Shown here: positions 1 through 29,506 of the stretch, piece by piece
Position numbering within the stretch: the stretch's first letter is position 1
Layout: the number at the start of each line of letters is the position of its first letter
Origin: Candidatus Iainarchaeum sp.
GTDB taxonomy: Archaea; B1Sed10-29; WALL01
Direction of reading: 5' to 3'
Assembly (NCBI GenBank): GCA_023129115.1
Contig: JAGMCR010000005.1
Location: 1 to 56,868, forward strand
DNA length: 56,868 bases
Notes under the pieces: generated by a model
Database searches by the model: none
What the model saw: the letters and a program-made list of their open reading frames with translations, nothing else
Told to the model about the DNA's origin: nothing
Position numbers and translations under genes: made by a program

Positions 1-3000
1 CGGCTGCACCTGCTGGCTCGGCTGCCTCTGCCGCAGCCCTGCGGGCCTCGCGCTCATCCACGCGGGCCATGGATCTGTCAACTATTTCGCCCACCTTAGC
101 AGACTCTGCCAGCGCCTTCGTGCGCAAGGCCTCCAGAGTCCGTGGCCTCACGATGAGCGGGGTCATAACGCCCGCCTCGTCCGCGAGCTTTTTTACGTAC
201 TTGGTTTCCTGCATATTGGGGTGAAGAGCAAGTATAAGCGGTGGGCTATACCTCTCGACTTCGTGCTTCATCTTCTCGTGGAAGTCCTCGCTCTCCCAGT
301 CCTCCTCGACCTCAATGTTCTCGAGAGCCCTCTCCCGCAGCGCGTCCAAGGTCTCCTTGGTTACGTGCTGGATTGGCGACTCGCCGGCAACCCTAGAAAG
401 CCTGCCCGCGTAATCCGCGACAGGCTCTTCACCAAGCCTTATTGCGGGGAAGAAAAGCTCGCGCCCCCGGAGGTCCCGCTTCATTCTCGTGTGCTTTGCT
501 GTAGTGAAGCCCCTCGCATCGAGCTGTGTCTCGGCAGCCTCCCTGATTGGAACAACAGGCCCGGCAACCGGCGGAACTGCCCTTGCCGGCGGCCTCTCTG
601 CGGGTGGCACTCCACGCGCTGGCGGCCTTGTTGTTGGCGGCCTTCCAGCGGGCCGTGCTTCTCCTGCTGGCGGCCTTGCCGGTGGCCTTGCCGGTGGCCT
701 TCTAGGCGCGGGAGTTACTTCCTCGCCCCTGTCGCGCGCCCTCTTTCTCCTTATGAGCTCGCGCTTGACCTCGCCCTGCAAAGTGGCGTTCCAGTATTGC
801 TTGTAAATCTTTTTACCACGGTTCGTGTTGGCCGCAATTACCTTGGTGCGGTCCCCGCCCTTCCAGCGCTTCTGGTGCGGCTCGAGCTGGTTCAACACTC
901 TCCTGAACTGCCGGTCATCATAAAGCGCCTCGATTGCGTCGGCCCATTCCTCCACGGTCTCCGGCATCACGCCGAGTGCATCGTGGCAAATTGCGTCAAG
1001 GATTAGAGTGTCCTTGTCGCCCCGTGCGCTGCTGCGGTCGTACGCCCGCACGCCGCCCGTGATGTGGCCCTCTTCCTCGAGCTCCTTCAGCAGGGTAGCA
1101 CCAGTCTCTTCCGGCACCCCGCCGACGTCCGCCGGCTTCTCCCAGTCGTGCACCTTGTCCCCGGATGCATCGACGCGGTCCTTGAGCAGCGCGTAAATGA
1201 GGCGCTGGCCCTCTTTCTTGTAGTGCGCCTGCGCGTCGGCGTCCCAGCGGCTCGGGTCGCCCTGGACATGGTCCAGCTCGTAAGTCATGCCGAGCGACCA
1301 GAAGAGCTGGTCCTTGTTCCTCAATAGCTTGGGCCTGGACTTCACGTTCGAGAGCTCCTTGACCGTGGCACTGGTGTCAACGGCGCGCAGCTCGTCGAAC
1401 GCCACTGGGGTGAAGCCCTGGTAGGCGTCGAGCTTCTCTTCGGCCCTGGGCGTTACCCTGCCGAGCTCTTTTCTTGCCTCGGCCAGCCTCTTGATTAGCT
1501 CGGTTTGCTTCTCCAGGCGCTCGACTTTTCTAGTGCACGTCACCGTGTCTTCCCCTGCCCTCGCCTCGTCCCGGTCTATGCTGCGCTGCTGGGCGACGAC
1601 ATCGCCCCTGCTGGCGCGAATGCTTGACCTTATGCCGTCGGCGGCAAGGCCAGCGAACGCGTGGTCGCCGAAGAATGCCTTCGCCTCGTCGGCAAACCCG
1701 CACTCCTCATAAGCCGGGTTGTTGAGGATGTCAATAAACGGCACTCCACTCACGGCATCCCCCTTGGCGCCGAGCCAGTGCGGCTCATTGGCCGCGTCAA
1801 TCTCGTTCTGGAAGTTGTCCAAATAGGTGAGGGCAAAGTCAAAGTCGTCCAGCTGCTCCTGGAGCTGCTGCTCCCTTGCCGCTGGCCGCGCGTAGCCACT
1901 GGCCGCGTCACGCTCTTCCGTGGCCTCGGCCAGCTCATTCTGCTTGTCCTCCAGGAGGTCGTTGGTCTGCTCGACGAGAGCCCTCCTAATTCTCCGTGCC
2001 TCGGTGTTGACTTGGTCAATCTGCGCCCCCCTCTCTTCCTTGTCGCCCATGCCAAGCTCTGCAATCAGCTTTTTCTTGGCGTGCACCCAGTCCGTGAAGC
2101 GCGGGCCGTCCTCAGTGTCCATGTGCAGGCGCTTCAGCATCGAGCGGAACTTCTGGTACTTCGATTCGGGCAGTGCCGAGTAGTCGATGTCCCTCCCGTT
2201 CGCGACGATGCGGTCGTAAACGCCCAGGAGGCCCTCTTCCCGCATTCTCCTCCTGGCGGCCTCGATGTTGACCTGCCCGCCGTCCATGGTCTCGCGGATA
2301 ATGCCCATTATGTCTTCCGAGCGCTCATAGTCCATGCCAAAGGCGATACGGCCGTCCAGGCCCTCCGGGATAATGCCGCGCCGGGTGAGGTCTTTCGCGA
2401 TGTCGATGAACACCAGCTCGCGGTTCGTGGAAAACTTGAAGAACTTGGCGTACTCGCTCGGGCTCCGCTCCCTGAACTCTTCCTCGACCGGTGAGTCGCC
2501 GTGCAGGACGATGGCCGCCGCCGGGTCCAGGTGGGGATAAGTCATCATTTCTTCTTCCCCGGGCTCAAACGCAACATTCCTTTCGACGTCGACAGTGAGC
2601 GCGTCTTCCATGGACTCGGGGAAGAGGTCGCGGTAGCCGTCCCTCTTTTGGGTGATGTAGTCCACGGTGTCGAGGTCAAACTTCATGAGAGTTTTCTCGC
2701 GCTCTTCCTCGTCAGTGGTGCGGAGTATAAGGTTGTCCTCGTGCTCCAGCGGTGTCCTGAAGTCGCCGCGCCTCATGCTTATCTTTCGGCTGAGGTCCCT
2801 GTCGAGGGCCATTTCCGTCCAGTAATCCTTTTTGGTGACCCACTTGCCGCCGACCTTTACCTTCGACGGCATGTACAGCGTGAACTTGTCCTTGTCGACA
2901 ATCGTGCCGTTGCGGAACGCGCGGACAATCGCCCTCGGGTTTTCCGCGATGCTGCCCACCATACCTTTGAAGGCACTCCTCAGCAGCTTCTTTCTCGTCT

Positions 3001-6000
3001 TCTTGCTCTTGCTGGGGAGGTCGGTTTCATTAATCTTTTTGATTTCTCTTCCGTAAGCCGCGACTGTTTCCCTGAACCCAACGTTGCCGCGCAGGAAGCG
3101 AAGCATTTCCTTGGCGATTGGCAGGTGCGCCTTGGCCACTGCCTTCTCGAGCTTGACGTCGCTCTCCTCGTAATCGGTCAGCACTTTCTCGTAATTGTCC
3201 AGCATCGCCTCCGTGTCCCCGATGTTGTAGTCCGCCGGGTTGTTTTCACTCCAGGCCACCGTCGAGACACGGTCGCGCATAAGCTCGCCCTGCCTCTTGA
3301 ACTGCTCTTTGTCCATTTTAAGGGCGTACTTGTCCGCCTCCTTGTCGATTACCGCGAACTCACGCGCGAGCCTTGCGTTGCCGGTCTTCAGCGCCTTGGC
3401 GTACTTGATTGCCCCGTCGACGACACGCGCCGCCGGCGTCTTCGTGTCCGCCGGGCTGACCGCCTTCCTTATGGCTGCCAGGCTCCTCGGGTCCCGGATA
3501 TTCGTGCCCTTGATGTTGCCGGCAATCCTGACGCCGACCAGGGTGCCGTGGCAGCGCGAGATTATGTCGTAGCCCGCCTTCTTCAGCGCCTGGTACTTCG
3601 CGAACTCTTCCTTGTCGCTGTCCGTGAAAGTCGTGAAGTCATTCATCGCCGTATAGGCAGCGTCCAGGGCATAGTCCGGGTGCTCGAGCAGAAGTATCTC
3701 GTTCTTCGCCACGATGATGTCGTTGAATCGCTCGGGCTGGTTTTGGCGGAGCCCATTCTCCCACTGCGCAAGCTTCGCGTCAAGCTCCCCGAACCGGTCG
3801 CCCTCGGCCGCGTCAAGGCGGCCTGTGCCAACCAGCTTGTCCTGCAGCTCCTCGAACACTGTCCTTTCGGCCACGGTAAGGCCGGCGTGCACGCTGTCCT
3901 TTTTGGCGCGGAGCGTGTCTGCGGGAGTTTCCCCGGCCAGCTTAGCCATGTGCTGCAGGAGCGTCACCCTCGCGGAAGAGCCACTGAATTCGCCCTCCAA
4001 GTCGTCCCAGCCGCGCGTCACGCGGTGCATTCCCGCGATGGCGTCCGCTGCCTCCACCGGGAACGACTCCACGACCAGCTTGCTCCTCTTCGACGGCGAG
4101 GTGCGGGCCTTGTTGTAGGCCCTGGCGACGAGCCAGTGCTTCTCGAACTCGTTCGCGCCCATCTGTTCCCTGAGGCGTCCCGAGCCCTCTGACCGGAAGA
4201 TTGCCTCGGGCACTTCTTCCGGCTTGACGGGCTTGCCGTTGATGACGAACGCCCCCGACTCGATTACCTCGCCGAGCCCGGGCACCCACCTCGGCGCGCG
4301 CTTCAGGACTGCCGCGCCGGGAGTGCCGTGCTTGACGTAGACGACGTCGCGGACGACCTCTTCCCTGCCAGTGCCCTCGTGCACCTTCACCAGCTTCTCG
4401 CCCTCGTCAGTTGTGGAATACGTGAGGCCGTACGACTCGTCGAGCCACCCGTCGAGCCTCCTGGCCTCATCGCCGGTCGCGGTCCTCCGCTCGCCCTCGA
4501 GCTCCGCCGCAGTGTATTCGTGGCGGCTGCCGTCCGCCCTCCTGACTCTTATGCGCTTGGGCACGGCCTTGTGGTAGACTGCACTGCCGCCGAACGCGCC
4601 CTTCGCCCCCAGTAACGGGCCGAAAGCGTCGCGGTCCTCGCCGGCGTTCTCCCGGCTGTCCTTGCAAAGCCTGATGAGGTCGGCCGGCCTCGCGAAGCTG
4701 TAGAACTTCCCGTCGATTGTAATCGCTCCGCCGCCTATGTCATAAGACTCATCGTCGATTTCGACTTGTGGCTTGCGCTCGGGCGGCTCGAACATGCCCG
4801 TGTTTTGCTTGATTTTGGTCTCGATTTCTTTTTTCACTGCCTTAGCCCGCCCGTACTGCGGCCTCATGATTCCCTGGGCCTCTGCCTCGGCAGTAAGTGA
4901 GTGGCCGGTCGCCGCATCCGTAAGCATGGACAGCTCCGCCCTGTCCTGGGGGTCGAACAGGTTGTACTCCTTGCCCAGGATGTTGAGCTTGCCGCCCCTC
5001 ACGGTCGTTGCCACCTCGGTGGCACGGTTGGTCGCGGGGTCTAGGACATAAGCCTTGAACTCCTCGCCCTCGATTTGGCCCAGCAGCGAGGCGTCTCCCG
5101 CCTCCATAAGTTTCCGGGACGCCATGTACACAAGCTGGTCGAAGGCGTCTTCCTCCACGTCCTCAAGCGCCAGGTCAATCACCGTTTTTTTGTCCAGCCT
5201 GGCGAGCCGCCTCCGCGCGGCAGCCTCGGTGAGTGTGGCGTCGTCGGCCCTCAGCTGCCTGATTGCGACCTTGTCGCCGAGCTCTGGCACCTTGTCCACC
5301 AAAAGCTCAGCCATCTGGGCGTCCAGAAAGCCAAAGTAAGTGGTGTCGCGCTGGTCCCTGACAGCGGCCTCCAGCGTCCTGCGCCGCTGGTTGGCGCTGA
5401 AGTTTGCGTAATTCTCCTTCGCATCACCCACTGACTGCCCACTGTCCACAAGCGCCATGACCGTGACCCGCTCGGCCACGTCAGGGTTTGCCCGCACGGC
5501 ATTGAGCAAGTCTTCCTCGGTTGTGTCGTCCGCGTCCAGGCGAGTTATTACGTCGGCCACGGGCTCGTACGCGTCCTCGACTCCCGAAAGGAAGTCCTCT
5601 AGGCACTGCTCTCTCGGGCCGTGGAGCTCGCCAAGCAGCGCTGGGCTCGCCATCTCGGTCACTTTGCCGGTGATTGGGTCGGTCCGGCCGAGCATGACGT
5701 CGAAATGGCTGTCCAGCTTCGACGCCTCCGTGATGTGCCCGCCAAGAAGGATTGCCTCCAAAACCGTGTTTACTTCCCTTTGCCTGCCGCCCGCGTCGGC
5801 AAACGTTATCTTTCCGTCAGCGACAGTATAGCCCTCGAACTCGCCGTCGAGCCTCGCCAGCTTGTCAACAAAGTCCGCCTCGCCCGGCAGCGCCTGGGCC
5901 GCGGGAATAATTTGGTCCACGAACACGCTCTGGTAGTCGTCGCCGAGCGCGTCCTCGACCTCCTTCGTGTTTTGGATTTTGTAGCCCAAGCTGAGGAACT

Positions 6001-9000
6001 GCCTCTCCCTGATGTCGTCGAGCCTCTTCTCGTACGACGTGTCAATGGTCCTGTTCCTGACCATGTCCTCTTCCATCTCGGCGTATTGCGTGGAGAAGTT
6101 TGCCTGCATCTCTGCCTTGGAATAGGTGTCCGCGCCGTTCCTTATGAAGTACTCCCTGTTGAACCTGCCGCCCCAGCACTCCCACTCCGTGGTCTCGACT
6201 TCTTCGGTCGCCTTAACGCGCTTGCCTTCCTTCGTGAGGAACATGTGGCCCTTCAGCCTGTAGTCGTTCCTGTAGCCGTCGGCCGCCGCGCTCTTTTCCT
6301 GGAAGGAGTGGATTGCCTTGGCGACGCTGTTACGGTCGAGCTTGATTCCCACGCGGAACGGGTAGTTTCTTCGCTCCGCGAGGTCGGCGAGCTCCACGCG
6401 GTCCAGTGGGTTCCCCAAGTCGTAGCGCCGGCCCTCCACCGTGACCTTGCCGTCACGGATGCTCGCCTCCTCGTGCGTGGTCCCGCCGGTGTCGGGATCC
6501 GTGGTTATTTTTATTGTCAGGGTCTTGCCCTCGAGCTCTTCGGCCGTAGCCGTGAGCTCGTGCGTGCCGCGCTTGAAGAGCCAGTCCCGGCTCTTGGACT
6601 CCTCGACGCCGTCGACGTAGCGGTAGAGCCTCACAAGCGTCTCTGCCTCTGGCGCGGAGTCTGCGGGCAGCGTGCCCAGGAACCGGAAGCGCTGGAGCAG
6701 CGCCTTGGTGTCCTCGCTGAGCCCCGCGTCCCCGAGCAGTGAATCAATGTTGTCGCTCGCGGAGTTGGCCTTGTCAAACTCTCCCCACTTTAGCCTCTGG
6801 TTGGACACGCGCACGGTTCGGCTGAAGTTATAGACCTCGGTCTCGTCCAGTGTCGAGCCAGCCGCGAACCTGCCCTCGGTAATTGGGCTGTCGACATTGT
6901 GCCAGTCCTCGTGCGTGTCCGGCTCCAGGAACTCTGCCTCCTCTTCTTCCGGGGTGAAGCCATAGTACTGGAGCGTGCGCCCATCGAACCTGAACCCGTC
7001 GTGCCCGCCAAGTATTTCGTTGACAGTGTTCCCGCCGTACCTCTGGAACAAGTCCCTCACGCGCTCGTGCGTCTCCTCGCTCTCGTCGTCGAACTTGTCG
7101 AGCAGCTCGCCCCTGAGGGCTGCCTCGAACGCCCTCTCGGCCGCCGGGTCCTCAATCTGCACGGCCCCTCCCCTCTTTATGCGGACCGGGAGAGTCCGGC
7201 TCTTGTCCGTGACTACATAGAACGCGCCTGTCTGGGCTTTTGCGTCGCCAAGGATTTTGTCGGCGACCACGCGCTCGTAGCTGTCGCCGAGTTCGCTCAT
7301 GAGCTCACGCGTGTTAAATGTCCTGCCCTCTACGTCCAAGTAGTCACTGAACAGGTCAACCACCACTGCCTCGCCGCCCTCGTCCTCGAACGCCAGCACG
7401 CCGTCGCCGACGGCGTACGTCGTGCCCTCGTGGGTGAACGCGTAGTCCATGTTGGCGACTATATCCCTTTCGTCAAGAGTGATGGCGGTGGGGTTGACGC
7501 GCTCGAAGAGGGTTTCGTCCGCAACGCCGTGGGCGCGGGCCATGTTCATCACGTCGCCGTACATCGGGTTCCACTCGACCTGTATCTGCTTGCGCTCGGT
7601 CTGCAGGTCGTTGTATGCGAGCACCTTGGCCTCGGGCCCGTTAAGCCTCTCGACTGTTTCCGCCCATTGCGCTGGAGTGAGCTCGATGGGCCACTCCTTC
7701 ATGCCCTCAAGCACCGTGGCCATGTCAAGCATGCGCTGGGTGCGTGCCATGCTGCTAATGGATTTGCCCTCGAGCTCCTCGGCGCTGCCCGTGACCTTTT
7801 CGCCGAGCCTCTCGAAGTAGCGGCGCGAATCCGTCTTGAATTCCCTGACTGCCTCGGAATCGCCCGTCCGAAAGCCCATCTGCCGCCTAGCGTTCTGCCG
7901 CAGCGCGGCCCAGCTGTTCTGCACGCGCTCCTGGGCGTCCTCGAGCCTGCCCACGCGCTCGCGCTCCCAGTCAATGGTTGCCTCCCTGCGCTGGCGCCTG
8001 TTCTCGATTCCCCTCAGCTCGCGGCGCGGGTTCAGGTCCCTAAGCTTCTTCCAGGCCCTGGCCCACTCGTGGTAGTCCGGGTTGTAGAGGCTGGCCGTGG
8101 CCCTGTCGAGCCCGCCGACTGCATCGTCGAACTTTTCCTTGAGCGGCTCTTCCCCGGGGAAGAGCTTCTTGGCGCTGATGTCGGGCACGCTTATGTCGGC
8201 CTCCTCGTCCTCGGCCGTGATGTCGCCGTACGCCTCCCTCTGCGTCTCGAACGGGAGTGCGGAGTGGTGCTCTTCGTATGCCTCGGCCTTTTCCTCGGGA
8301 GTGCCCTCGCGCATCACTTCCTCAAGCGCTTTGGCTGCCTCGTTCCTTTCCTCGACAGTGGCCTTGATTTCTTTCCTGACGCGGAAGCCCGGCCTCACGC
8401 GCCGCTGCATGAAGCGCGTGAACGCGTTGGTCCCGGTGAGGCGCAGCTCCTTGACGGCCTTTTTGTTGTTGGCCAGGTCGTCGAGCGTGTTAATCCTGTA
8501 TTTTGCGAGCGTGTTCTTGACCCACGCCTCCTCGTGCTTGATGTCGGCGTCGTCCAGCATTCTCGAGACCTGGCTGTCAATTGGCAGGCGCCCCCTCACG
8601 TACTTGGCGCGCCGGCCGAACTCCCTCGCGAACCTCTGGGGGTTCCAGGTGGCGGGCCTGCGCCCGTGCTCGTCGACGAAGTCCCTCAATGCCGCGAGGG
8701 CTGCGTCGACCTCGGGCCCCTGGTTCCTGTCGGGGTCGGCTTCTATCTCGTCAATATCTGGCCCCACGACGCGGAGCAGCTCCTCCCGGTTCCGGCCACG
8801 CAGGCCTTCTTCCTGCTCGGCGAGTCTGGCCTCAAACATGGGGGCGTGCAGCTTGCTAAAGACTTCTGCGAATTGCGCCGCGTCCCAGGCGCCTGTCTCC
8901 TCATAGTCGGAGATGAACTCCTGTGCTGCCCGATAGTTTTCGTTCGCGTCGGCATTTGGCATGAACTCCGCGAAATCCCTGAGATAACTATCTGCTGTCC

Positions 9001-12000
9001 TGCGGCCCTCGGCGGCGCCCAGTGCCCCGAAGCGGCTCTTTACCTCTTCTTCTGTTTTGCCGTACGCGACCTCATTAATCTGCCTAGTCAGCTTGGCGTA
9101 CTCGTCGCCGTCCCACTCGGGCGCCTCGCGGTAGTTGTCGACAATGTCCTCTGCCTCCTCAAGGCGGCGCCGTGCGCGCCTGTCCGGGTAAAGGTTAATG
9201 CTCGTGCGCAGGTCGGCGAGCACTTCGTCCGCCGCCTCGACCGCGTCCCCGCGGCTCATGTCTTCCATGCGGTAGCGCGACAGCGCCTCGCTCACGCGGT
9301 CGTACGTGCCCTGTGGCATCTTGTCCGAGTACCTCTGCTTGAACTGCTCGAGTGCGTCCCACTTCTTGTTCCGGATGGCCTTCTCGACCTTCAGCATCAT
9401 CTCGGCCGCTTGCCTGTCCGCCTTCTTGACTTTGGCGTCCTTGCCCCTGAACAGCATGTGCCCAAGGCTCTTGCTCGACAGCGCGTCCTCAAGCGACAAA
9501 AGGCTCTTGTTGTCCCTCTTGCCAGCCGCGCCAAGGAAGCTCTGCACCTCTTCCGGCGAGTACTCAAGGCCCTGCTCCCTCATGAACACGGAAAGCTGCT
9601 TTGTCACAGGCGCCAGTTCCTGCGCCCCGTAAACCGCGCTGACATACTGCGTGGCAAGCTGCTTCTCAAGAGCCTGCCACCTCTCCCGCGACAAGCCCTC
9701 GAACTCGTCGCGCGTCCTGTCCGGGAAGAGTTCGACCAGCCTCTCAATGTTCTTCTGCTTCACCGCCTCAATCCTGTCAAGCGCAACCCTCGCCCTCTTG
9801 GTGAGGCGCTCGTGCGTGGCGTCGTCTGCCACGCGCGCATAAGACTCGTGGCCCATGACGTTCTTCTTCATGTGGTTGAGGACTGCCACCTTTTCCCGCG
9901 GCGTCCTCGCGGCCAGCACCCGGCCAACCCCCAGGACCATGTAGGCGCGCCTCTGCGTGCGCTCGTCAAGATTGTCCCAGTTCTTCCACGCGACGCGCTG
10001 GAGCGCGTCAAGGTCTTCCGCGGCCGCCAGCTCGTTCACGCGCCGCCTGATTGCTGCGTTGGGGTGCGTCGCCAGCTCCGCAATCCCTTCGTCGCGGTCG
10101 GACTCAAGCTGTTCCGCCAGCTTCCTCATGAGGCTCCTGCCCTGTGCCTTCTTCCGCGGCGACTTTATGAACTTGAACTTTTCGTGGTCGCCCTTGACAA
10201 GCAGGTAGCCGAGGTACTCGCTCCCAAGCGCCTCGTCAACCGTCCCTATGCGCTGGTCGCTCCGCTGCCGCGCAAGCTGCATCAATGCGTCGAGGTTCGC
10301 GCGGGTGTAGCCCCTTGTCCCCTCGCCGGTAGCCTCCAATAGCCTGAACATCTCGCTCGCGGTGTCGGACACGGGAAGCGGCTCGGCGCCTTCTTCAGCT
10401 GCTTCTTCGGCGCCTTCTTCGGCGCCTTCTTCGGCGCCTGGCTCGCCCTCAGGCCTAGGCCCGAGGTCGCCGTGGTAATACGCGCGGGTCACCCTATCCC
10501 ACATGTCAGTCAACTGCGGCGCGCCCGCCGGTGGCTGTGCGCCAGGCGGCACTGCGCCAGGCGGCACTGCGCCAGGCACTTCTGCGCCCGGTGGAGCGGC
10601 TGCTGCTGGAACAAGCTGCACTTCCTGCTGCCTGTCCATGATGGACTGGTGCAGTTTTTCAGCGATTTCCTTAGCCTTCTTCTGCTCGATGTGGTCCTGC
10701 AGCCTGGCGAGTGCCTTCCTGTACTCGTGGCCTTCCACCCCCTCGAGTGCGTCCCTGATAACGCCCCGCCTGCGGTTCAATACTTCCAAGCCGTTCCTGA
10801 GCTGCATGCGCTCCTCGACCGTGAGGTCCTCAAAGTGTGTTATTTGGCCAAGCCGGTCCTTCAGGTTGAACAGCCTCGTGAGCTTCACCGAGTCGTTTTG
10901 CTCTTCCGGCACCCCCTCTGGCGTCGGGACTGCTCCCGCCATCACTCCTGAGTGCTGGGCAAGCGCATTGATTGCGGTGAACACCTGCTCTTCGTCAAGG
11001 TCACGGTAGTCGCGCCCGCCGATGAGCGTGCGAAGATTCTGGCGAAGGCCCTGCCTTAGCTCGCCCTCCTGGTAGACTCCTTCCTGGAGCCGGTTGAGTG
11101 GCTGGATTATGTCTGTGCCAATGCCACTTGTTTCTGCCTTGTCCTTGAGGTCGGCGAACTCAAGATTGGTGACGCGGCCCTGGCCGGCGCGCTCCTTGTC
11201 TATGAGCCGCTGGATTGCATCGCCCATTTGGCCGTAGGCACTAACGCGCTCGGGCGAGAGCCCTGCGTTGAACTGCCGGAGGTTCGAGTGGACATTTACC
11301 AGTGCGCGCATGTCGCTCTGGCCGATGTTGTGATATGCCATGTCCGGGCTTGCGACGCGCGTGATTGCCTCGTGCTGGTCCTCGGGAATGCCGAGCTCGT
11401 TCAGCACCTGCCTCATTCCCGCGGCGCCGAGGTGGCGGACACTGTCAGTAACCTGGTCCTGGGTCCGCTGCGGGCGCTGGGCGAGGTTCTCCAGCGTCTG
11501 CTGCATGGGGTTCTGCGCGGCAGCGTCCTGCTGCGCGTTTGGGTTGACGCCCAGGCCCTGGTAGCCCCGCTCCATCTGGCCCGCCACAGAATTGCGGCTG
11601 CTCATGTTGTTGTACAACTCGAGCAATAGGTCCTTGTGCACCTTGTCGCCGGCCTTGTACGAAAGCGGCCCGGCCCGGCCGTGCCTCTCGTTCAGGGCGC
11701 TTGCCTCTTCGTGAGTAATTGGAGTGTTAAGGAAAGCACGAATGTTGCGGGTGCCAGACCACGCGGTCTGGCTCCAGTGGATTTCGTGCCTGAAGATGTT
11801 GAACGGCGAGAACCGCGACGCCCCGTACTTTTCCCTCGCGTCGGCCTCGTCCACCTTTGCCCTCTCGAGCCGCACAAGCAGCGGCTCCAGCTCAGGGCCA
11901 CGCATCCCCATTGCATGGGACTGTACAAAAGCTGTGTGGGCGTAAAGCCGGTCCCACTTTTTTCTCCTAAGGTTTTCTCTCAAATCGCCAGTCGATTTTC

Positions 12001-12010
12001 GCAGCACCAT
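1..12010 (-). CDS. Giant hypothetical protein, at least 4003 aa, C-terminus beyond the left edge
   Basis: ATG at 12010 with AGGTGG SD and an in-frame TGA just upstream (12044-46). Translation MVLRKSTGDLRENLRRKKWDRLYAH... stays open to position 1. The track lists no minus-strand ORF in this frame, which is expected if there is no stop. The long plus-strand ORFs are its codon-register shadows. Confidence 0.95.
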   Translation of the reverse strand, partial: MVLRKSTGDLRENLRRKKWDRLYAHTAFVQSHAMGMRGPELEPLLVRLERAKVDEADAREKYGASRFSPFNIFRHEIHWSQTAWSGTRNIRAFLNTPITHEEASALNERHGRAGPLSYKAGDKVHKDLLLELYNNMSSRNSVAGQMERGYQGLGVNPNAQQDAAAQNPMQQTLENLAQRPQRTQDQVTDSVRHLGAAGMRQVLNELGIPEDQHEAITRVASPDMAYHNIGQSDMRALVNVHSNLRQFNAGLSPERVSAYGQMGDAIQRLIDKERAGQGRVTNLEFADLKDKAETSGIGTDIIQPLNRLQEGVYQEGELRQGLRQNLRTLIGGRDYRDLDEEQVFTAINALAQHSGVMAGAVPTPEGVPEEQNDSVKLTRLFNLKDRLGQITHFEDLTVEERMQLRNGLEVLNRRRGVIRDALEGVEGHEYRKALARLQDHIEQKKAKEIAEKLHQSIMDRQQEVQLVPAAAAPPGAEVPGAVPPGAVPPGAQPPAGAPQLTDMWDRVTRAYYHGDLGPRPEGEPGAEEGAEEGAEEAAEEGAEPLPVSDTASEMFRLLEATGEGTRGYTRANLDALMQLARQRSDQRIGTVDEALGSEYLGYLLVKGDHEKFKFIKSPRKKAQGRSLMRKLAEQLESDRDEGIAELATHPNAAIRRRVNELAAAEDLDALQRVAWKNWDNLDERTQRRAYMVLGVGRVLAARTPREKVAVLNHMKKNVMGHESYARVADDATHERLTKRARVALDRIEAVKQKNIERLVELFPDRTRDEFEGLSRERWQALEKQLATQYVSAVYGAQELAPVTKQLSVFMREQGLEYSPEEVQSFLGAAGKRDNKSLLSLEDALSSKSLGHMLFRGKDAKVKKADRQAAEMMLKVEKAIRNKKWDALEQFKQRYSDKMPQGTYDRVSEALSRYRMEDMSRGDAVEAADEVLADLRTSINLYPDRRARRRLEEAEDIVDNYREAPEWDGDEYAKLTRQINEVAYGKTEEEVKSRFGALGAAEGRRTADSYLRDFAEFMPNADANENYRAAQEFISDYEETGAWDAAQFAEVFSKLHAPMFEARLAEQEEGLRGRNREELLRVVGPDIDEIEADPDRNQGPEVDAALAALRDFVDEHGRRPATWNPQRFAREFGRRAKYVRGRLPIDSQVSRMLDDADIKHEEAWVKNTLAKYRINTLDDLANNKKAVKELRLTGTNAFTRFMQRRVRPGFRVRKEIKATVEERNEAAKALEEVMREGTPEEKAEAYEEHHSALPFETQREAYGDITAEDEEADISVPDISAKKLFPGEEPLKEKFDDAVGGLDRATASLYNPDYHEWARAWKKLRDLNPRRELRGIENRRQRREATIDWERERVGRLEDAQERVQNSWAALRQNARRQMGFRTGDSEAVREFKTDSRRYFERLGEKVTGSAEELEGKSISSMARTQRMLDMATVLEGMKEWPIELTPAQWAETVERLNGPEAKVLAYNDLQTERKQIQVEWNPMYGDVMNMARAHGVADETLFERVNPTAITLDERDIVANMDYAFTHEGTTYAVGDGVLAFEDEGGEAVVVDLFSDYLDVEGRTFNTRELMSELGDSYERVVADKILGDAKAQTGAFYVVTDKSRTLPVRIKRGGAVQIEDPAAERAFEAALRGELLDKFDDESEETHERVRDLFQRYGGNTVNEILGGHDGFRFDGRTLQYYGFTPEEEEAEFLEPDTHEDWHNVDSPITEGRFAAGSTLDETEVYNFSRTVRVSNQRLKWGEFDKANSASDNIDSLLGDAGLSEDTKALLQRFRFLGTLPADSAPEAETLVRLYRYVDGVEESKSRDWLFKRGTHELTATAEELEGKTLTIKITTDPDTGGTTHEEASIRDGKVTVEGRRYDLGNPLDRVELADLAERRNYPFRVGIKLDRNSVAKAIHSFQEKSAAADGYRNDYRLKGHMFLTKEGKRVKATEEVETTEWECWGGRFNREYFIRNGADTYSKAEMQANFSTQYAEMEEDMVRNRTIDTSYEKRLDDIRERQFLSLGYKIQNTKEVEDALGDDYQSVFVDQIIPAAQALPGEADFVDKLARLDGEFEGYTVADGKITFADAGGRQREVNTVLEAILLGGHITEASKLDSHFDVMLGRTDPITGKVTEMASPALLGELHGPREQCLEDFLSGVEDAYEPVADVITRLDADDTTEEDLLNAVRANPDVAERVTVMALVDSGQSVGDAKENYANFSANQRRRTLEAAVRDQRDTTYFGFLDAQMAELLVDKVPELGDKVAIRQLRADDATLTEAAARRRLARLDKKTVIDLALEDVEEDAFDQLVYMASRKLMEAGDASLLGQIEGEEFKAYVLDPATNRATEVATTVRGGKLNILGKEYNLFDPQDRAELSMLTDAATGHSLTAEAEAQGIMRPQYGRAKAVKKEIETKIKQNTGMFEPPERKPQVEIDDESYDIGGGAITIDGKFYSFARPADLIRLCKDSRENAGEDRDAFGPLLGAKGAFGGSAVYHKAVPKRIRVRRADGSRHEYTAAELEGERRTATGDEARRLDGWLDESYGLTYSTTDEGEKLVKVHEGTGREEVVRDVVYVKHGTPGAAVLKRAPRWVPGLGEVIESGAFVINGKPVKPEEVPEAIFRSEGSGRLREQMGANEFEKHWLVARAYNKARTSPSKRSKLVVESFPVEAADAIAGMHRVTRGWDDLEGEFSGSSARVTLLQHMAKLAGETPADTLRAKKDSVHAGLTVAERTVFEELQDKLVGTGRLDAAEGDRFGELDAKLAQWENGLRQNQPERFNDIIVAKNEILLLEHPDYALDAAYTAMNDFTTFTDSDKEEFAKYQALKKAGYDIISRCHGTLVGVRIAGNIKGTNIRDPRSLAAIRKAVSPADTKTPAARVVDGAIKYAKALKTGNARLAREFAVIDKEADKYALKMDKEQFKRQGELMRDRVSTVAWSENNPADYNIGDTEAMLDNYEKVLTDYEESDVKLEKAVAKAHLPIAKEMLRFLRGNVGFRETVAAYGREIKKINETDLPSKSKKTRKKLLRSAFKGMVGSIAENPRAIVRAFRNGTIVDKDKFTLYMPSKVKVGGKWVTKKDYWTEMALDRDLSRKISMRRGDFRTPLEHEDNLILRTTDEEEREKTLMKFDLDTVDYITQKRDGYRDLFPESMEDALTVDVERNVAFEPGEEEMMTYPHLDPAAAIVLHGDSPVEEEFRERSPSEYAKFFKFSTNRELVFIDIAKDLTRRGIIPEGLDGRIAFGMDYERSEDIMGIIRETMDGGQVNIEAARRRMREEGLLGVYDRIVANGRDIDYSALPESKYQKFRSMLKRLHMDTEDGPRFTDWVHAKKKLIAELGMGDKEERGAQIDQVNTEARRIRRALVEQTNDLLEDKQNELAEATEERDAASGYARPAAREQQLQEQLDDFDFALTYLDNFQNEIDAANEPHWLGAKGDAVSGVPFIDILNNPAYEECGFADEAKAFFGDHAFAGLAADGIRSSIRASRGDVVAQQRSIDRDEARAGEDTVTCTRKVERLEKQTELIKRLAEARKELGRVTPRAEEKLDAYQGFTPVAFDELRAVDTSATVKELSNVKSRPKLLRNKDQLFWSLGMTYELDHVQGDPSRWDADAQAHYKKEGQRLIYALLKDRVDASGDKVHDWEKPADVGGVPEETGATLLKELEEEGHITGGVRAYDRSSARGDKDTLILDAICHDALGVMPETVEEWADAIEALYDDRQFRRVLNQLEPHQKRWKGGDRTKVIAANTNRGKKIYKQYWNATLQGEVKRELIRRKRARDRGEEVTPAPRRPPARPPARPPAGEARPAGRPPTTRPPARGVPPAERPPARAVPPVAGPVVPIREAAETQLDARGFTTAKHTRMKRDLRGRELFFPAIRLGEEPVADYAGRLSRVAGESPIQHVTKETLDALRERALENIEVEEDWESEDFHEKMKHEVERYSPPLILALHPNMQETKYVKKLADEAGVMTPLIVRPRTLEALRTKALAESAKVGEIVDRSMARVDEREARRAAAEAAEPAGAA
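669..701. repeat. 12-bp tandem repeat encoding RPPA units in the giant protein
   Basis: ggcggccttgcc-ggtggccttgcc-ggtggcctt. Confidence 0.85.
10383..10439. repeat. 12-bp tandem repeat (GAEE units) in the giant protein
   Basis: tcggcgccttct about 4.7 copies, one variant. Confidence 0.9.
10538..10577. repeat. 15-bp tandem repeat (VPPGA units) in the giant protein
   Basis: tgcgccaggcggcac about 2.7 copies. Confidence 0.9.
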
Positions 12011-12024
12011 CGAACCACCTTTTA

Positions 12025-12039
12025 GTGCAATATTTGCAC
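12025..12039. promoter_or_regulatory. Palindromic operator candidate upstream of the giant gene
   Basis: GTGCAA-TAT-TTGCAC between a TATA-like TATATAA (about 12063-69, minus strand) and the SD. Confidence 0.5.
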
Positions 12040-12062
12040 AGAATCATTAGCGCGGTTCCTAC

Positions 12063-13010
12063 TTATATACCTTTTGTTAATAGGGCTGCAAAGAACTCTG
12101 GGTGGTCCGGCAGGCCCGCTATTTCGTTGGCCCGAGACCAAGCTGTTTCAACAAACCCTGTCGAGACAGTATCCGAGACAATAAATAGCGTAGAATAGAG
12201 CTCGGTTACTCCATCAGAACTCTCCAAGAGCTTCTTTGTTGTTTTGGCTGCTGTTTTGTAATCCTTTACCAGGCTGCTCCAGCCCGAAAAAACAGATGAA
12301 ACGCGCGTCAAAAAGGGCTCCAAGACGTCCCGTTCTCCCGCAGACAGCTTTTCTTTGATATCGAGCCATGGGACGAGCTTGTTTCCACAATCGTGCTTCT
12401 CCAAGAGGCTGATTACTGAAGCGTCTCGTATTGAGTGGGGTGAGTGCGCGAGGAATTTGTTGCAGTTTATTACATGCATTTTTCCGGCGCTGGTGCCGGC
12501 GAAGAAGCGGGAGAGCGGCATGTACCTGGCCTGCATGAGGGTGAGGTTTTCGAAGACGCCTGTGGGGCCGTAGTCCAGGAAGAGCAGCTTGCCGTTGGGC
12601 TTCAGCGACTTTTCGGCTTTGCCGAGGAAGTTGTGGAGCTCGAGCGGGATTACGGCGGTTGTGCCGCGGGGAATGGTGAGGCCGGAGCGCTTCATGAATG
12701 CGTTGGCCTGGCGGGACTGCTCTTTGGTGAGGTCGACGAGCTCGCCGGCCTTGGCGGCATAGAGCTTGTTGTCGATGTTGATTAGCTTGAGGCCGCGGAG
12801 CTGGGGGAGGCACTGCACGCAGGCGACGAAGTCGTAGTCTGCGGAGGCGTCGAGGGCGAGGGGGTCGTCGAGCACGTCCGGCTTCCAGTCCAGGAACTTC
12901 ATTTTTTTGGCAGACGGCCCGATTACTGCTGCGTCGCCTTTCCCGAGGGATTCCTCGAGTGCGAGCGAGAGCATGCCGCCGCAGGTCTCGACGAGGTCGA
13001 TTTCGAACAT
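12063..13010 (-). CDS. SAM-dependent methyltransferase-fold protein (possibly MidA/NDUFAF7-like, divergent)
   Basis: Class I MTase-like strands DYDFVAC and LKPNGKLLFLDYG; no clear GxGxG. Confidence 0.5.
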   Translation of the reverse strand: MFEIDLVETCGGMLSLALEESLGKGDAAVIGPSAKKMKFLDWKPDVLDDPLALDASADYDFVACVQCLPQLRGLKLINIDNKLYAAKAGELVDLTKEQSRQANAFMKRSGLTIPRGTTAVIPLELHNFLGKAEKSLKPNGKLLFLDYGPTGVFENLTLMQARYMPLSRFFAGTSAGKMHVINCNKFLAHSPHSIRDASVISLLEKHDCGNKLVPWLDIKEKLSAGERDVLEPFLTRVSSVFSGWSSLVKDYKTAAKTTKKLLESSDGVTELYSTLFIVSDTVSTGFVETAWSRANEIAGLPDHPEFFAALLTKGI

Positions 13011-13065
13011 CGCTTGCACTATGCAGCCGCGGAATTTATATTTGCCGGTGGAGCAATAGGGTGTA

Positions 13066-13206
13066 ATGGTTTTCGAGGTCGTGGCTGTTTTGCTGCTGGT
13101 GGCGGCGGGCTACCTGTGGGTCCTGAACCGGCGGGTGGGCGCTTTGCCCGCGAACGCGAGCCGGGAAGAGCCCTGGCTGAAGGACGAGGAGCTTGAGCTC
13201 CCGTAA
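13066..13206 (+). CDS. Small single-pass membrane protein (46 aa)
   Basis: MVFEVVAVLLLVAAGYLWVLNRR...; TTTATA and GGGTG upstream; below the track length cutoff. Confidence 0.65.
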   Translation: MVFEVVAVLLLVAAGYLWVLNRRVGALPANASREEPWLKDEELELP

Positions 13207-13238
13207 CTAATAAAAAGCGGGGCGGGTTATTCACTATC

Positions 13239-23639: not shown

Positions 23640-23686
23640 AAGTTTTATAAACCCCTACTCCCTATTCTGTCGAGAAGGTGTATACT

Positions 23687-28456: not shown

Positions 28457-29506
28457 ATGCTCGAGACCGTAATCCTTGGCAATACAGTGATGCAGTACAT
28501 TGAGGTAATAGGCATCGCGATAGGCTCGCTCCTCGCGGCCAAGGTGCTCTATTTCCTGTTCAAGAACGTCATTGGCGCCGCGGTCGCCAAGACCGAGACC
28601 AAGCTCGACGACGAGCTCGTGGACAAGGCCGAGGAGCCGCTCGTGCTGCTCGTCGTGCTGGCGGGGCTGTACTTCGGGATTACGCGCCTCTCGCTGGACA
28701 GCGGGCTGATGTGGGTGAACAATGGCACTTACCTCATCGTGGTAGCTGTGCTCACCTGGCTCGCGCTGCGGCTCGCTGACGTCGCCGTGAAGTTCTGGCT
28801 GAAGCCACTCGCCAAGAAGAGCAAGAGCAAGGTGGACGACCAGCTCGTGCCGATTGCCGACAAAGTACTCAAGCTGGTCATCCTCACGTTCGCCACGATA
28901 ATGGTATTGTCGCACTTTGGCTACAACGTGGACGCGCTGATTGCCGGGCTGGGCGTGGGAGGCATCGCGGTCGCGCTCGCGACCAAGGACTACCTCGAGA
29001 ACATTATTGGCGGGCTCACGATTTTCACGGACAAGCCGTTCCGCATCGGGGACCGCATCAAGGTCGGCGAGGTCGAGGGCACGGTCAAGGAAGTCGGCAT
29101 CCGCTCGACCCGGATAATGACGTTCGACAACACGCTCGTGATTATCCCGAACTCGCAGATGGTCACCAGCAAATTAGTGAACGTGTCCGAGCCGAACCGC
29201 ACGATTGCGGTCAAAATGACGCTTGGCCTGGTGTACAGCACAACGGTCGACCAGATGGAGAAGGCCAAGAAAATCATCAAGAAAGCGATTCTCAAGAACG
29301 ACGAGATTGACGAGAAGTACGAGCCGCTCATTTTCTTCAGTGAGTTCGGCGACTCCGCGCTGAAGCTCTGGGTGAAGTACCGCATCAAGGACTACAGCAA
29401 CAAGCTGACCATCACCGACAAAATCAACATGGAAATAAAGCGCGAGTTCGAAAAGGCAAAGATAGACTTCGCGTACCCGACGCAGACCGTGTACGTCAAG
29501 AAGTGA
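28457..29506 (+). CDS. mscS: Small-conductance mechanosensitive channel
   Basis: AGLGVGGIAVALA, KPFRIGDRI, IGIRST-like VGIRST, IPNS, FGDSAL, AYPTQTV. Confidence 0.95.
   Translation: MLETVILGNTVMQYIEVIGIAIGSLLAAKVLYFLFKNVIGAAVAKTETKLDDELVDKAEEPLVLLVVLAGLYFGITRLSLDSGLMWVNNGTYLIVVAVLTWLALRLADVAVKFWLKPLAKKSKSKVDDQLVPIADKVLKLVILTFATIMVLSHFGYNVDALIAGLGVGGIAVALATKDYLENIIGGLTIFTDKPFRIGDRIKVGEVEGTVKEVGIRSTRIMTFDNTLVIIPNSQMVTSKLVNVSEPNRTIAVKMTLGLVYSTTVDQMEKAKKIIKKAILKNDEIDEKYEPLIFFSEFGDSALKLWVKYRIKDYSNKLTITDKINMEIKREFEKAKIDFAYPTQTVYVKK

What the first reader, a model, noticed from the sequence alone, without database searches (positions are those of the whole stretch)
1..12010. Hidden giant protein of over 4,000 aa missing from the ORF track
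Seen: one uninterrupted minus-strand frame from ATG 12010 off the left edge. It is highly charged (E/D/R/K) and Cys-poor, with no signal peptide or TM helix in the visible part, and it has P/A-rich hinges. No catalytic motif was recognised. Inference: this is a large investment for a probable reduced-genome archaeon, and unlike typical giant adhesins it looks cytoplasmic or non-Sec exported. It could be a host-interaction effector or a scaffold.
Basis: partly seen in the sequence, partly recalled or inferred. Interest (0 to 1): 0.8.

Follow-up and report, generated by a model that had tools for sequence, protein, structure and literature searches.

The report
Orphan giant cytoplasmic-type archaeal protein
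A tiny-genome archaeon from a cold seep spends over one percent of its DNA on a single gene for a protein of about 5,600 residues that matches nothing known, sits at the same place in every genome of its family, and changes faster than any neighbouring gene.

Summary
Window 2-12010 (minus strand) is one open frame of 4003 codons starting at ATG 12010. It runs off the contig end, and independent contigs from three DNA runs show no stop or misassembly. A 1604-codon piece at the start of contig C7 of the same genome continues it across a short Ala/Glu/Pro repeat, giving about 5,600 residues (1.35% of the 1.25 Mb assembly).

The protein is charged, Cys-poor and not repetitive. It has no membrane-type segment and native codon usage. 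Pfam, NCBIfam, PHROGs, PDB sequences, two large protein databases and the ESM Atlas gave no hit, apart from one fragment from a same-genus genome.

The locus is conserved: a methyltransferase-fold gene, then giant charged gene(s), then leucyl-tRNA synthetase. The flanks were found in all six family genomes and a giant piece beside them in each. Sequence similarity is 20-30% within the genus and undetectable between genera, while the synthetase stays 37-85% identical. The positional counterparts carry HEAT repeats in one genus and a RamC_N lyase-like domain in another.

My best reading is a fast-evolving intracellular modular scaffold or tether (about 0.4). A contact-delivered effector is the main rival. 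Function remains unproven.

The parts
2..12010 (-). Giant open reading frame, codons 1-4003. The 3' end runs off the contig. It continues on G000:C7:3-4817 (+), 1604 codons, outside the window.
   Evidence: frame and assembly; continuation on C7
12008..12020 (-). ATG start (12010-12008), preceded by a Shine-Dalgarno-like AGGTGG (12020-12015)
   Evidence: read directly from the sequence
12063..12069 (-). TATATAA string overlapping the stop codon of the upstream gene, about 55 nt before the ATG. It may be the gene's own TATA box (inference).
   Evidence: by eye; the promoter scan was not run
10601..12010 (-). N-terminal region (aa 1-470), the part best conserved within the genus (23-28% identity to two orthologues)
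   Evidence: the profile search found only the G002 fragment
10502..10618 (-). Pro/Ala/Gly-rich hinge (aa 465-503), holding a 15-nt tandem repeat at 10538-10588
10383..10439 (-). Acidic Gly/Ala/Glu stretch encoded by a 12-nt tandem repeat (4.8 copies)
6341..6478 (-). Copy 1 of a roughly 45-residue hairpin-plus-helix motif (aa 1845-1890)
   Evidence: beta-hairpin then helix in the low-confidence model
4886..5020 (-). Copy 2 of the hairpin-plus-helix motif (aa 2331-2375)
4622..4756 (-). Copy 3 of the hairpin-plus-helix motif (aa 2419-2463)
533..742 (-). Pro/Arg/Ala-rich hinge (aa 3757-3826), holding a 12-nt tandem repeat at 672-701
1..43 (-). Ala/Glu/Pro repeat at which the assembly breaks. The last 13 nt of the coding strand recur, in frame, at nt 3-15 of contig C7.
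   Evidence: (47-base unitig of higher depth with another flank)
12063..13019 (-). Upstream 318-aa gene (P0002) on the same strand, 52 nt before the giant. It has a class I methyltransferase-like fold and is the conserved left flank of the locus.
13239..15734 (+). Divergently transcribed 831-aa surface glycoprotein-like gene: signal-like N-terminus, 27 N-x-S/T sequons, 12 Cys, C-terminal membrane anchor and a Lys/Pro/Glu-rich tail

Best explanation
Shown here. This is a real, native gene for a non-repetitive, highly charged, Cys-poor protein with no signal or membrane segment. It has about 5,600 residues: 4003 on this contig and 1604 on contig C7, joined across a short Ala/Glu/Pro tandem repeat that broke the assembly. 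It occupies a fixed locus (methyltransferase-fold gene, then giant gene(s), then leucyl-tRNA synthetase). Both flanks occur in all six genomes of one family of small-genome archaea. A giant charged piece lies beside one or both flanks in each. The only uninterrupted example is G005. Its sequence changes so fast that orthologues are 20-30% identical within the genus and unrecognisable between genera.

Inferred. The protein stays inside the cell and works as a very long modular scaffold or tether. Small helical and hairpin-helix modules are strung together by Pro/Ala/Glu-rich linkers. In the C-terminal piece there are E/K/R-rich rod-like helices and a polybasic tail. The overall size and modular make-up would matter more than the exact sequence. 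The neighbouring genes encode cell-surface proteins, so it may organise or anchor envelope or attachment structures from the cytoplasmic side. The conserved upstream methyltransferase-fold protein may act on it or with it. Neither binding nor modification was tested.
For: Real and native: (codon-position G+C like housekeeping genes).

Join with C7:
- The terminal 13-mer occurs only twice in the 1.25 Mb genome, at the C15 coding end and at C7 nt 3-15, in the same frame.
- Both ends lie in Ala/Glu/Pro low complexity.
- A 47-base unitig of depth 25.8 against 18.2 marks a short repeat at the break.
- The C7 piece has 0 Cys and the same charge pattern.
- It is followed directly by leucyl-tRNA synthetase. 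The same holds for the 5'-open charged pieces of G001 and G002, and the synthetase also bounds the giant genes of G004 and G005.

Conserved locus:
- P0002 homologues were found in 6 of 6 family genomes.
- In G000, G001, G002, G003 and G005 the next gene downstream is a giant charged ORF. G005 has 3803 + 843 + 652 aa on one contig.
- In G004 the contig ends at the P0002 homologue. A piece of at least 592 aa plus a 4143-aa ORF abut the synthetase on another contig.

Cytoplasmic type:
- None of the 12 giant pieces has a hydropathy window above 1.6, against 20 windows in the surface-protein control.
- There are 10 sequons and 7 Cys in 4003 aa, against 27 sequons and 12 Cys in the 831-aa neighbour.

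Scaffold-like make-up:
- There are no internal BLAST repeats, but there are hinges.
- The C7 piece has three E/K/R-rich segments totalling 165 residues.
- HEAT_2 repeats above Pfam threshold occur in the G005 counterpart (E 4e-14) and in its 843-aa follower.
- Total coding length at the locus is similar where it can be seen: about 5,607 aa in G000, 5,298 in G005 and at least 4,735 in G004.

Rapid change:
- The giant is 20-27% identical to G002 in patches only, and its C-terminal pieces are unalignable.
- Against the same genome, P0002 is 76%, the synthetase 85% and the surface protein 44% identical.
Against: - No fold is known for any part. The single-sequence AlphaFold model of aa 1401-2600 had mean pLDDT 41 and cannot be used.
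- The window's own protein has no HEAT hit in Pfam. A direct comparison of a HEAT-looking stretch of the C7 piece with the G005 repeats was not significant (E 0.08).
- Homology between the giants of different genera is not shown. The locus could therefore hold replaced rather than diverged genes.
- The shared hairpin motif is weak: 8.1 bits in G005, reached by 0 of 300 shuffles of that protein, while one shuffle of G002 scored 9.8.
- The E/K/R-rich helices occur only in G000.
- Divergence faster than a surface glycoprotein fits an arms race at least as well as relaxed constraint.
- The G004 counterpart carries an enzyme-like RamC_N domain (E 7e-18).
- No expression, localisation or interaction data exist.
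- The number of repeat units in the C15-C7 gap was not measured.
Confidence: 0.4

Rival explanations
1. It is a host-directed effector or contact-dependent weapon. The protein would be handed to the host cell through a non-Sec route, such as a cell-cell bridge or a pilus-type machine, and would evolve fast because of conflict with the host.
For: It changes faster than the neighbouring surface glycoprotein. C-terminal parts cannot be aligned even within the genus. The positional counterpart in G004 has a RamC_N lyase-like domain near its C-terminus. By eye, that counterpart also has a gamma-glutamyl-cyclotransferase-like string. Genes for surface proteins lie next to the locus in four genera. 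Small-genome archaea of this type are thought to live attached to hosts (general knowledge, recalled).
Against: No secretion signal, trafficking domain, Rhs/YD or haemagglutinin-type repeats were found. No small immunity-like gene follows; the next gene is a tRNA synthetase. No enzyme domain was found in the window's own protein or its C7 piece. No export route for a 5,600-residue protein without a signal is known in archaea (recalled).
Confidence: 0.2
2. It is a fused string (polyprotein-like) of many small lineage-specific proteins with no joint mechanical role. The string would be free to split and fuse, and perhaps be cut after translation.
For: The locus is one frame in G000 but three ORFs in G005 (3803, 843, 652 aa) and at least two in G004. 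The protein is not repetitive and is interrupted by linker-like hinges. Orthologues differ by about 1000 residues of insertions over the alignable part: G000 aa 1-2980 correspond to G002 aa 1-2004.
Against: No protease domain or known cleavage signal was found. None of the modules matches any stand-alone protein in 1.84 billion representatives (N-terminal profile only) or in the 5.8-billion set.
Confidence: 0.1
3. It is a nucleic-acid- or nucleoid-associated giant protein, whose polybasic tail and charged helices bind DNA or RNA.
For: Lys/Pro-rich polybasic C-terminal tails occur in G000 and G002. K+R reaches 21% in the C7 piece.
Against: The tail is not conserved in G001, G004 or G005. The C15 part has a net charge of -120. 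No DNA- or RNA-binding domain was found.
Confidence: 0.08
4. It is an ordinary extracellular giant adhesin whose signal lies elsewhere or was missed.
For: Giant proteins of small-genome archaea and bacteria are usually surface proteins (passages of 10.1101/2023.11.21.568195). Neighbouring genes encode surface proteins.
Against: The true N-terminus is in the window and is charged, not hydrophobic. No membrane-type segment occurs in 5,607 residues. There are no tandem domains. Sequons are not enriched and Cys is nearly absent, unlike this organism's own surface giants, which have 39-76 Cys.
Confidence: 0.07
5. It is an assembly artefact or a decaying, unexpressed frame.
For: The frame is cut by a contig end. 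All orthologues in draft genomes are cut too.
Against: A second assembly of the reads gives the same 12.1 kb with 0 differences, and two other samples carry it. The frame is kept open over 12 kb. Giant open frames sit at the same locus in six genomes. The codon-position G+C pattern is that of coding sequence.
Confidence: 0.02

Closest known systems
HEAT/ARM-type alpha-solenoid scaffold proteins (Pfam HEAT_2 PF13646, HEAT PF02985)
   Same: Large, soluble, mostly helical interaction platforms with low sequence conservation. The positional counterpart in genome G005 has HEAT_2 repeats above threshold.
   Different: The window's protein and its C7 piece have no HEAT hit. About a third of the modelled stretch looks like beta-hairpin plus helix units (low confidence). 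No HEAT protein of this size is known to me in archaea (recalled).
Cytoskeletal proteins of the Mycoplasma pneumoniae attachment organelle (HMW1, HMW2, HMW3, P200), recalled from memory and not fetched
   Same: Wall-less or small host-attached cells. Very large, charged, Cys-poor cytoplasmic proteins with acidic Pro-rich linker domains and long helical rods that support a surface attachment structure. Fast-evolving and restricted to a lineage.
   Different: There is no sequence relation. The EAGR box family did not hit. Those proteins are under 2,000 residues. Nothing here shows an attachment organelle.
Giant proteins of Omnitrophota ('Archaeovorins'; bioRxiv 10.1101/2023.11.21.568195, passages read)
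   Same: Giant genes in ultra-small, probably host- or prey-dependent microbes. They break short-read assemblies, lie near pilin-type genes, and have long N-terminal parts without known domains.
   Different: Those proteins have signal peptides or membrane association, peptidase, glycosyl-hydrolase and transferase domains, and are larger than 10,000 aa. None of these features is present here.
Giant surface proteins of archaea (halomucin; 'SPEARE'-type proteins of nanohaloarchaea, recalled; for PMC10266531 only the search listing was seen)
   Same: Among the few archaeal proteins of several thousand residues. Found in or near symbiotic small archaea.
   Different: Those are secreted or surface-bound and built from recognisable adhesion, protease or nuclease domains. 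This one has no signal, no anchor and no known domain.
Charged helical orphan giants of other small-genome archaea noted earlier in this scan (e1-2526778, e1-3324527, e1-1113977; AI notes, unchecked)
   Same: Membrane-less, highly charged, fast-evolving, lineage-restricted proteins. Some lie next to a tRNA-synthetase gene or carry TPR/HEAT/J domains. They were read as intracellular scaffolds.
   Different: Those have 1,265-1,972 residues and this one about 5,600. No sequence likeness to any earlier window was found.

Membership tests
Giant secreted or surface adhesins (halomucin-like, Bap/RTX-like, archaeal S-layer-linked giants) | N-terminal signal peptide or a membrane anchor | tested here: not met
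   No 19-residue hydropathy window above 1.6 in 4003 + 1604 residues; the control surface protein has 20. The N-terminus is charged. No dedicated signal-peptide predictor was available.
Giant secreted or surface adhesins (halomucin-like, Bap/RTX-like, archaeal S-layer-linked giants) | Tandem arrays of adhesion domains (Ig-like, cadherin, LamG and the like) | tested here: not met
   No Pfam family at threshold. Self-BLAST at E up to 10 gave no internal repeat.
HEAT/ARM alpha-solenoid scaffolds | HEAT-type repeats recognised by profile | tested here: inconclusive
   No hit in the window's protein or the C7 piece. The G005 counterpart hits HEAT_2 at E 4e-14 and its 843-aa follower at E 3e-9. A pairwise comparison of the C7 stretch with the G005 repeats gave E 0.08.
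Polymorphic toxins and contact-dependent effectors (Rhs, CdiA, MARTX type) | N-terminal trafficking domain and Rhs/YD or haemagglutinin-type repeats | tested here: not met
   No such Pfam, NCBIfam or PADLOC-independent hit. PADLOC itself was not searched.
Polymorphic toxins and contact-dependent effectors (Rhs, CdiA, MARTX type) | Variable C-terminal enzyme domain followed by a small immunity gene | tested here: inconclusive
   C-terminal parts are variable. G004 has RamC_N. G000's C7 piece has no enzyme domain, and the next gene is leucyl-tRNA synthetase.
SMC/Rad50-type coiled-coil ATPases | Walker A/B ATPase head domains flanking the coiled coil | tested here: not met
   No SMC or Rad50 family hit. 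Two strings fit the loose Walker A pattern, but both lie in an acidic repeated motif.
E/R/K-rich single alpha-helix spacers (definition recalled) | Long Pro-free stretches dominated by alternating Glu and Lys/Arg | tested here: met
   By my own composition rule, three segments (61, 63 and 41 residues) occur in the C7 piece and none in the C15 part. Helicity was not tested.
Class I SAM-dependent methyltransferases (for the upstream gene P0002) | Rossmann-like methyltransferase fold | tested here: met
Class I SAM-dependent methyltransferases (for the upstream gene P0002) | Gly-rich SAM-binding motif I | tested here: inconclusive
   In alignment A2 no Gly of that region is invariant, and the three homologues of the second family lack the segment. 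The invariant residues lie in the C-terminal half (read by eye). Cofactor binding was not tested.

The most novel reading that the evidence does not exclude
This family of small-genome archaea keeps, at one fixed chromosomal site, a protein (or protein set) of about 5,000-5,600 residues whose total length and charged, linker-and-module build are conserved while its sequence turns over completely between genera. That would make it a 'length-matters' intracellular ruler or tether. It could be a cytoskeleton-like element under the attachment surface, possibly modified by its dedicated methyltransferase-fold partner, and able to pick up lineage-specific enzyme or HEAT modules. It would be a new class of archaeal structural protein.
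Probability: 0.2. Interest if true: 0.85.

Novelty: new variant of a known kind. Interest (0 to 1): 0.6.

Why it matters
Archaeal proteins above 5,000 residues are few, and the known ones are surface proteins (passages of PMC11573180 and of 10.1101/2023.11.21.568195). Here a 1.25 Mb genome devotes 1.35% of its DNA to one cytoplasmic-type protein with no relative in billions of sequences, and the locus is kept in every genome of the family. A cost that large in a reduced genome implies an important role, probably tied to the symbiotic lifestyle.

The finding also has a practical side. The gene is cut at contig ends in five of the six draft genomes. Gene callers and protein databases therefore hold only fragments or nothing, and sequence searches cannot link the genera. 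Only synteny (methyltransferase-fold gene on one side, leucyl-tRNA synthetase on the other) reveals it. The same trick may uncover similar hidden giants in other lineages.

Tried and rejected
Searches with the giant or its pieces that found nothing:
- The search for homologous proteins over the whole 4003 residues, near lengths and shorter lengths: no hit.
- ESM Atlas for aa 1-2000 and aa 2001-4003: no usable hit.
- The search for related loci with aa 3004-4003 in genome contigs and in metagenome contigs: no relative.
- HMMER profile of the N-terminal 470 residues against 1.84 billion representatives: 1 hit, the G002 fragment itself.
- PDB sequences, NCBIfam and PHROGs: only sub-threshold noise.
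- The scan's earlier findings, by place and by sequence: nothing alike.

Comparisons between the giants:
- phmmer all-against-all, hhalign of the N-terminal profile against G005 and G003, and searches with the G005 giant in five family genomes: no cross-genus similarity.
- The C7 piece against G001-G005: only an E 0.002 low-complexity match.
- The HEAT-looking stretch of C7 against the G005 HEAT repeats: E 0.08.
- No end overlaps between the two pieces in G001 or in G002.

Structure: the AlphaFold single-sequence model of aa 1401-2600 had mean pLDDT 40.9, so no fold search was made with it.

Expression: no RNA holder was listed among the sequencing runs.

Context checks:
- Exact suffix-prefix overlap of contig ends found nothing at first, because C7 carries two extra leading bases. 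The 13-nt match appeared on direct reading.
- In the second family that has the P0002 gene (3 of 4 genomes), no giant follows it. A 1181-aa charged ORF some 7 kb away has no family.
- Pfam did not confirm my by-eye reading of pilin-type signals in the genes upstream of P0002 in G004 and G005. One of them has a Big_13 domain.

Considered and rejected:
- Foreign or mobile origin. G+C at third codon positions equals that of housekeeping genes, the locus is inherited across the family, and no integrase was noticed among the 16 nearby ORFs sent to Pfam. The only tRNA gene, tRNA-His, lies 6 kb away.
- An alternative genetic code. None is needed.

Not run: complex prediction (no binding claim rests on it), the PADLOC library and the promoter scan.

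The coordinates in this report come from positions printed, converted by hand arithmetic.
Full report
**1. The observation**

The window is the whole contig C15 of a 1,247,405-base, 19-contig genome, 88.6% complete with 0.2% contamination. On the minus strand an ATG at 12010 opens a frame of 4003 codons that reaches window position 2 without a stop.

Under a plain base-composition model this has a chance of about 1e-51 (my own arithmetic). G+C by codon position is 0.64/0.42/0.81. That is the same pattern as in the leucyl- and alanyl-tRNA synthetase genes of the genome. The frame is therefore coding and uses native codons. Its higher overall G+C (0.62 against 0.57) comes from first codon positions, that is from amino-acid content.

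A Shine-Dalgarno-like AGGTGG lies 4 nt before the ATG, and a TATATAA string lies about 55 nt upstream (by eye). The long ORFs on the opposite strand, up to 1147 aa, are shadows of this purine-rich gene.

Three cold-seep DNA runs of one study hold the stretch. One 17,942-base contig covers window 1-12100 with no difference, and fragments from two other samples differ at one base. The best run may be the source of the assembly.

**2. The protein is longer than the window shows**

Both the submitted assembly and the independent contig stop within 5 bases of each other. A 47-base unitig of higher depth (25.8 against 18.2) matches window 1-32 with two mismatches and a different flank. This is the signature of a short repeat.

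The last 13 nt of the coding strand occur only twice in the whole genome: at this end, and at nt 3-15 of contig C7, in the same reading frame. Both ends encode Ala/Glu/Pro low complexity.

C7 opens with a 1604-codon frame that has no upstream stop. It has 0 Cys, 21% D+E and 21% K+R. It is followed directly by leucyl-tRNA synthetase.

The same arrangement occurs in both other genomes of the genus. A 5'-open charged frame at a contig end runs into the synthetase gene, 2033 aa in G002 and 444 aa in G001. I conclude that C15 and C7 are adjacent.

The gene then has 4003 + 1604 codons plus a few repeat units, about 5,600 residues or 16.8 kb, which is 1.35% of the assembly. The number of repeat units in the gap was not measured.

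**3. What the protein looks like**

- Composition: D+E 17.9%, K+R 14.9%, net charge -120, and 7 Cys in the C15 part.
- No membrane-type segment in any of the 12 giant pieces examined. The neighbouring 831-aa surface protein, used as control, has 20 such windows.
- N-x-S/T sequons are not enriched: 10 in 4003 residues, against 27 in 831 residues of the neighbour.
- This organism's other giant ORFs, a cluster of paralogues on contig C3, have 39-76 Cys each.
- Self-comparison finds no internal repeat.
- One short recurring unit, a beta-hairpin followed by a helix, occurs three times at aa 1845-1890, 2331-2375 and 2419-2463.
- There are two Pro-rich hinges (aa 465-503 and 3757-3826) and an acidic Gly/Ala/Glu repeat.
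- The C7 piece holds three long E/K/R-rich, Pro-free segments of the kind that form stiff single helices (my composition rule; the definition is recalled). It ends in a Lys/Pro-rich basic tail.
- A single-sequence AlphaFold model of aa 1401-2600 was too poor to use (pLDDT 41). Its secondary structure suggests helices mixed with hairpin-helix units.

**4. No relatives by sequence**

- Pfam, NCBIfam, PHROGs and PDB sequences give nothing at threshold.
- The 5.8-billion-protein search found nothing among near-length or shorter proteins.
- The ESM Atlas gave no usable hit for either half.
- Scans of genome and metagenome contigs with the last 1000 residues found no relative.
- Among 41 related genomes searched with aa 1-3000, only the two other genomes of the genus matched, at 24-35% identity in patches.
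- A profile of the N-terminal 470 residues of the three orthologues, run by HMMER over 1.84 billion representatives, found one protein, the G002 fragment itself.

**5. Synteny reveals what sequence cannot**

The gene just upstream (P0002, 318 aa, same strand, 52-nt spacer) is well conserved: 76% identity in G002 and 48% in G001. Homologues exist in all five other genomes of the family and in three of four genomes of a second family. That is 9 of 13 genomes of the order and 9 of 31 of the class.

In G000, G001, G002, G003 and G005 the next gene downstream is a giant, charged, Cys-poor frame:

| Genome | What follows the P0002 homologue |
|---|---|
| G005 | Complete 3803-aa ORF, then ORFs of 843 and 652 aa of like composition, then leucyl-tRNA synthetase |
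| G003 | Contig ends after 715 aa of the giant frame |
| G004 | The contig ends at the P0002 homologue; on another contig a piece of at least 592 aa and a 4143-aa ORF abut the synthetase |
| G002 | N-terminal 2004 aa on one contig and C-terminal 2033 aa on another |
| G001 | 583 aa and 444 aa on two contigs |

The total length where visible is about 5,607 aa in G000, 5,298 in G005 and at least 4,735 in G004.

Despite this, phmmer, hhalign and genome searches find no similarity between the giants of different genera, nor between the C-terminal pieces within the genus. Across the same genomes the synthetase is 85, 73, 52, 51 and 37% identical.

A model built from the three hairpin-helix copies scores 8.1 bits on the G005 giant. 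None of 300 shuffles of that protein reached this, but one shuffle of G002 scored 9.8, so this is only a hint of common descent.

The positional counterparts carry recognisable modules that the window's protein lacks:
- HEAT_2 repeats in G005 (E 4e-14) and in its 843-aa follower.
- A RamC_N lyase-like domain in G004 (E 7e-18).

In the second family that has a P0002 homologue, no giant follows it.

**6. Neighbours**

Its invariant residues lie in the C-terminal half. The Gly-rich cofactor motif is not conserved (by eye), so catalytic activity is open.

On the other side lies a divergently transcribed 831-aa protein. It has a signal-like start, many sequons, a membrane anchor and a Lys/Pro/Glu-rich tail. 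It is 44%, 35% and about 22% identical in G002, G001 and G003.

In G004 and G005 the genes before P0002 look like membrane-anchored surface proteins by eye. Pfam confirms only one Ig-like domain.

**7. Reading**

Shown: a real, native, position-conserved, cytoplasmic-type giant gene without known relatives that diverges faster than any neighbour.

Inferred as most likely (about 0.4): an intracellular modular scaffold or tether whose size and build matter more than its sequence. It is perhaps linked to the envelope genes beside it, and perhaps acted on by the methyltransferase-fold partner.

The main rival (about 0.2) is a host-directed effector moved by a non-Sec route. This would explain the arms-race-like divergence and the enzyme module in G004, but no export signal, route or immunity gene is seen. 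Smaller rivals are a fused string of unrelated small proteins, a nucleic-acid-binding protein, an ordinary adhesin, and an artefact.

**8. Comparison and novelty**

It is not a member of any family tested (see the membership table). In manner of working it most resembles HEAT-type solenoid scaffolds. From memory it also resembles the large acidic, Pro-rich cytoskeletal proteins of the mycoplasma attachment organelle.

I searched the literature twice, with 'giant protein' + DPANN and with 'giant genes' + archaea. I read passages of two papers. They describe archaeal giants as rare and, where characterised, extracellular. I found no description of this locus, but two searches do not prove it is not in print.

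Earlier notes of this scan list smaller charged orphan giants in other small-genome archaea. These are unchecked notes and show no sequence likeness, but they suggest a recurring theme. I rate this a new variant of a known kind (large lineage-restricted scaffold-like proteins) and set interest at 0.6. The reasons are its exceptional size for the genome, the conserved locus with complete sequence turnover, and the unproven function.

Noticed in passing
G000:C3:17933-50630 and G000:C3:85889-96982 (another contig of the same genome): Four tandem paralogous giant ORFs (2490-2876 aa, 23-37% identical to each other, 39-69 Cys each) and a fifth giant ORF of 3698 aa with 76 Cys. These are probably the secreted or surface type of giant protein. 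Together with a 2617-aa ORF on C14, giant genes take up a large share of this small genome.
   Followed up: partly
window 13239-15734 (+): 831-aa surface glycoprotein-like protein with 27 N-x-S/T sequons, a Cys-rich stretch, a Thr/Pro linker, a C-terminal membrane anchor and a Lys/Pro/Glu-rich tail of about 130 residues. It is conserved next to the locus in G001, G002 and G003.
   Followed up: partly
window 6899-10342 (+): A 1147-aa open frame antisense to the giant gene, with several others over 250 aa. They are shadow frames of a G+C-rich, purine-skewed gene and not genes themselves.
   Followed up: yes
L048 (G004:C5) 2436-14864 and 3-1778: The 4143-aa counterpart in G004 has a RamC_N domain at aa 3546-3675. 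It also shares a unit of about 100 residues, present at least twice, with the preceding 5'-open 592-aa piece (E 1e-35).
   Followed up: partly
L044 (G002:C17) 4962-11060 (-): The C-terminal piece of the G002 orthologue contains a CxxC...CxxC string (zinc-ribbon-like, by eye) and ends in a long Lys/Ala/Pro-rich basic tail.
   Followed up: no
window 23678-26470 (+): 930-aa protein whose first 55 residues match the archaeal type IV pilin N-terminal family just below threshold (23.4 bits against a cut-off of 25.2).
   Followed up: no
window 29496-30779 (-): AAA_14 plus DUF4143 ATPase, next to a mechanosensitive-channel gene and a TBP gene.
   Followed up: no
whole genome G000: Strong bias of G+C towards third codon positions (about 0.8) against 0.40 at second positions, in a genome of 0.57 overall G+C.
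   Followed up: no
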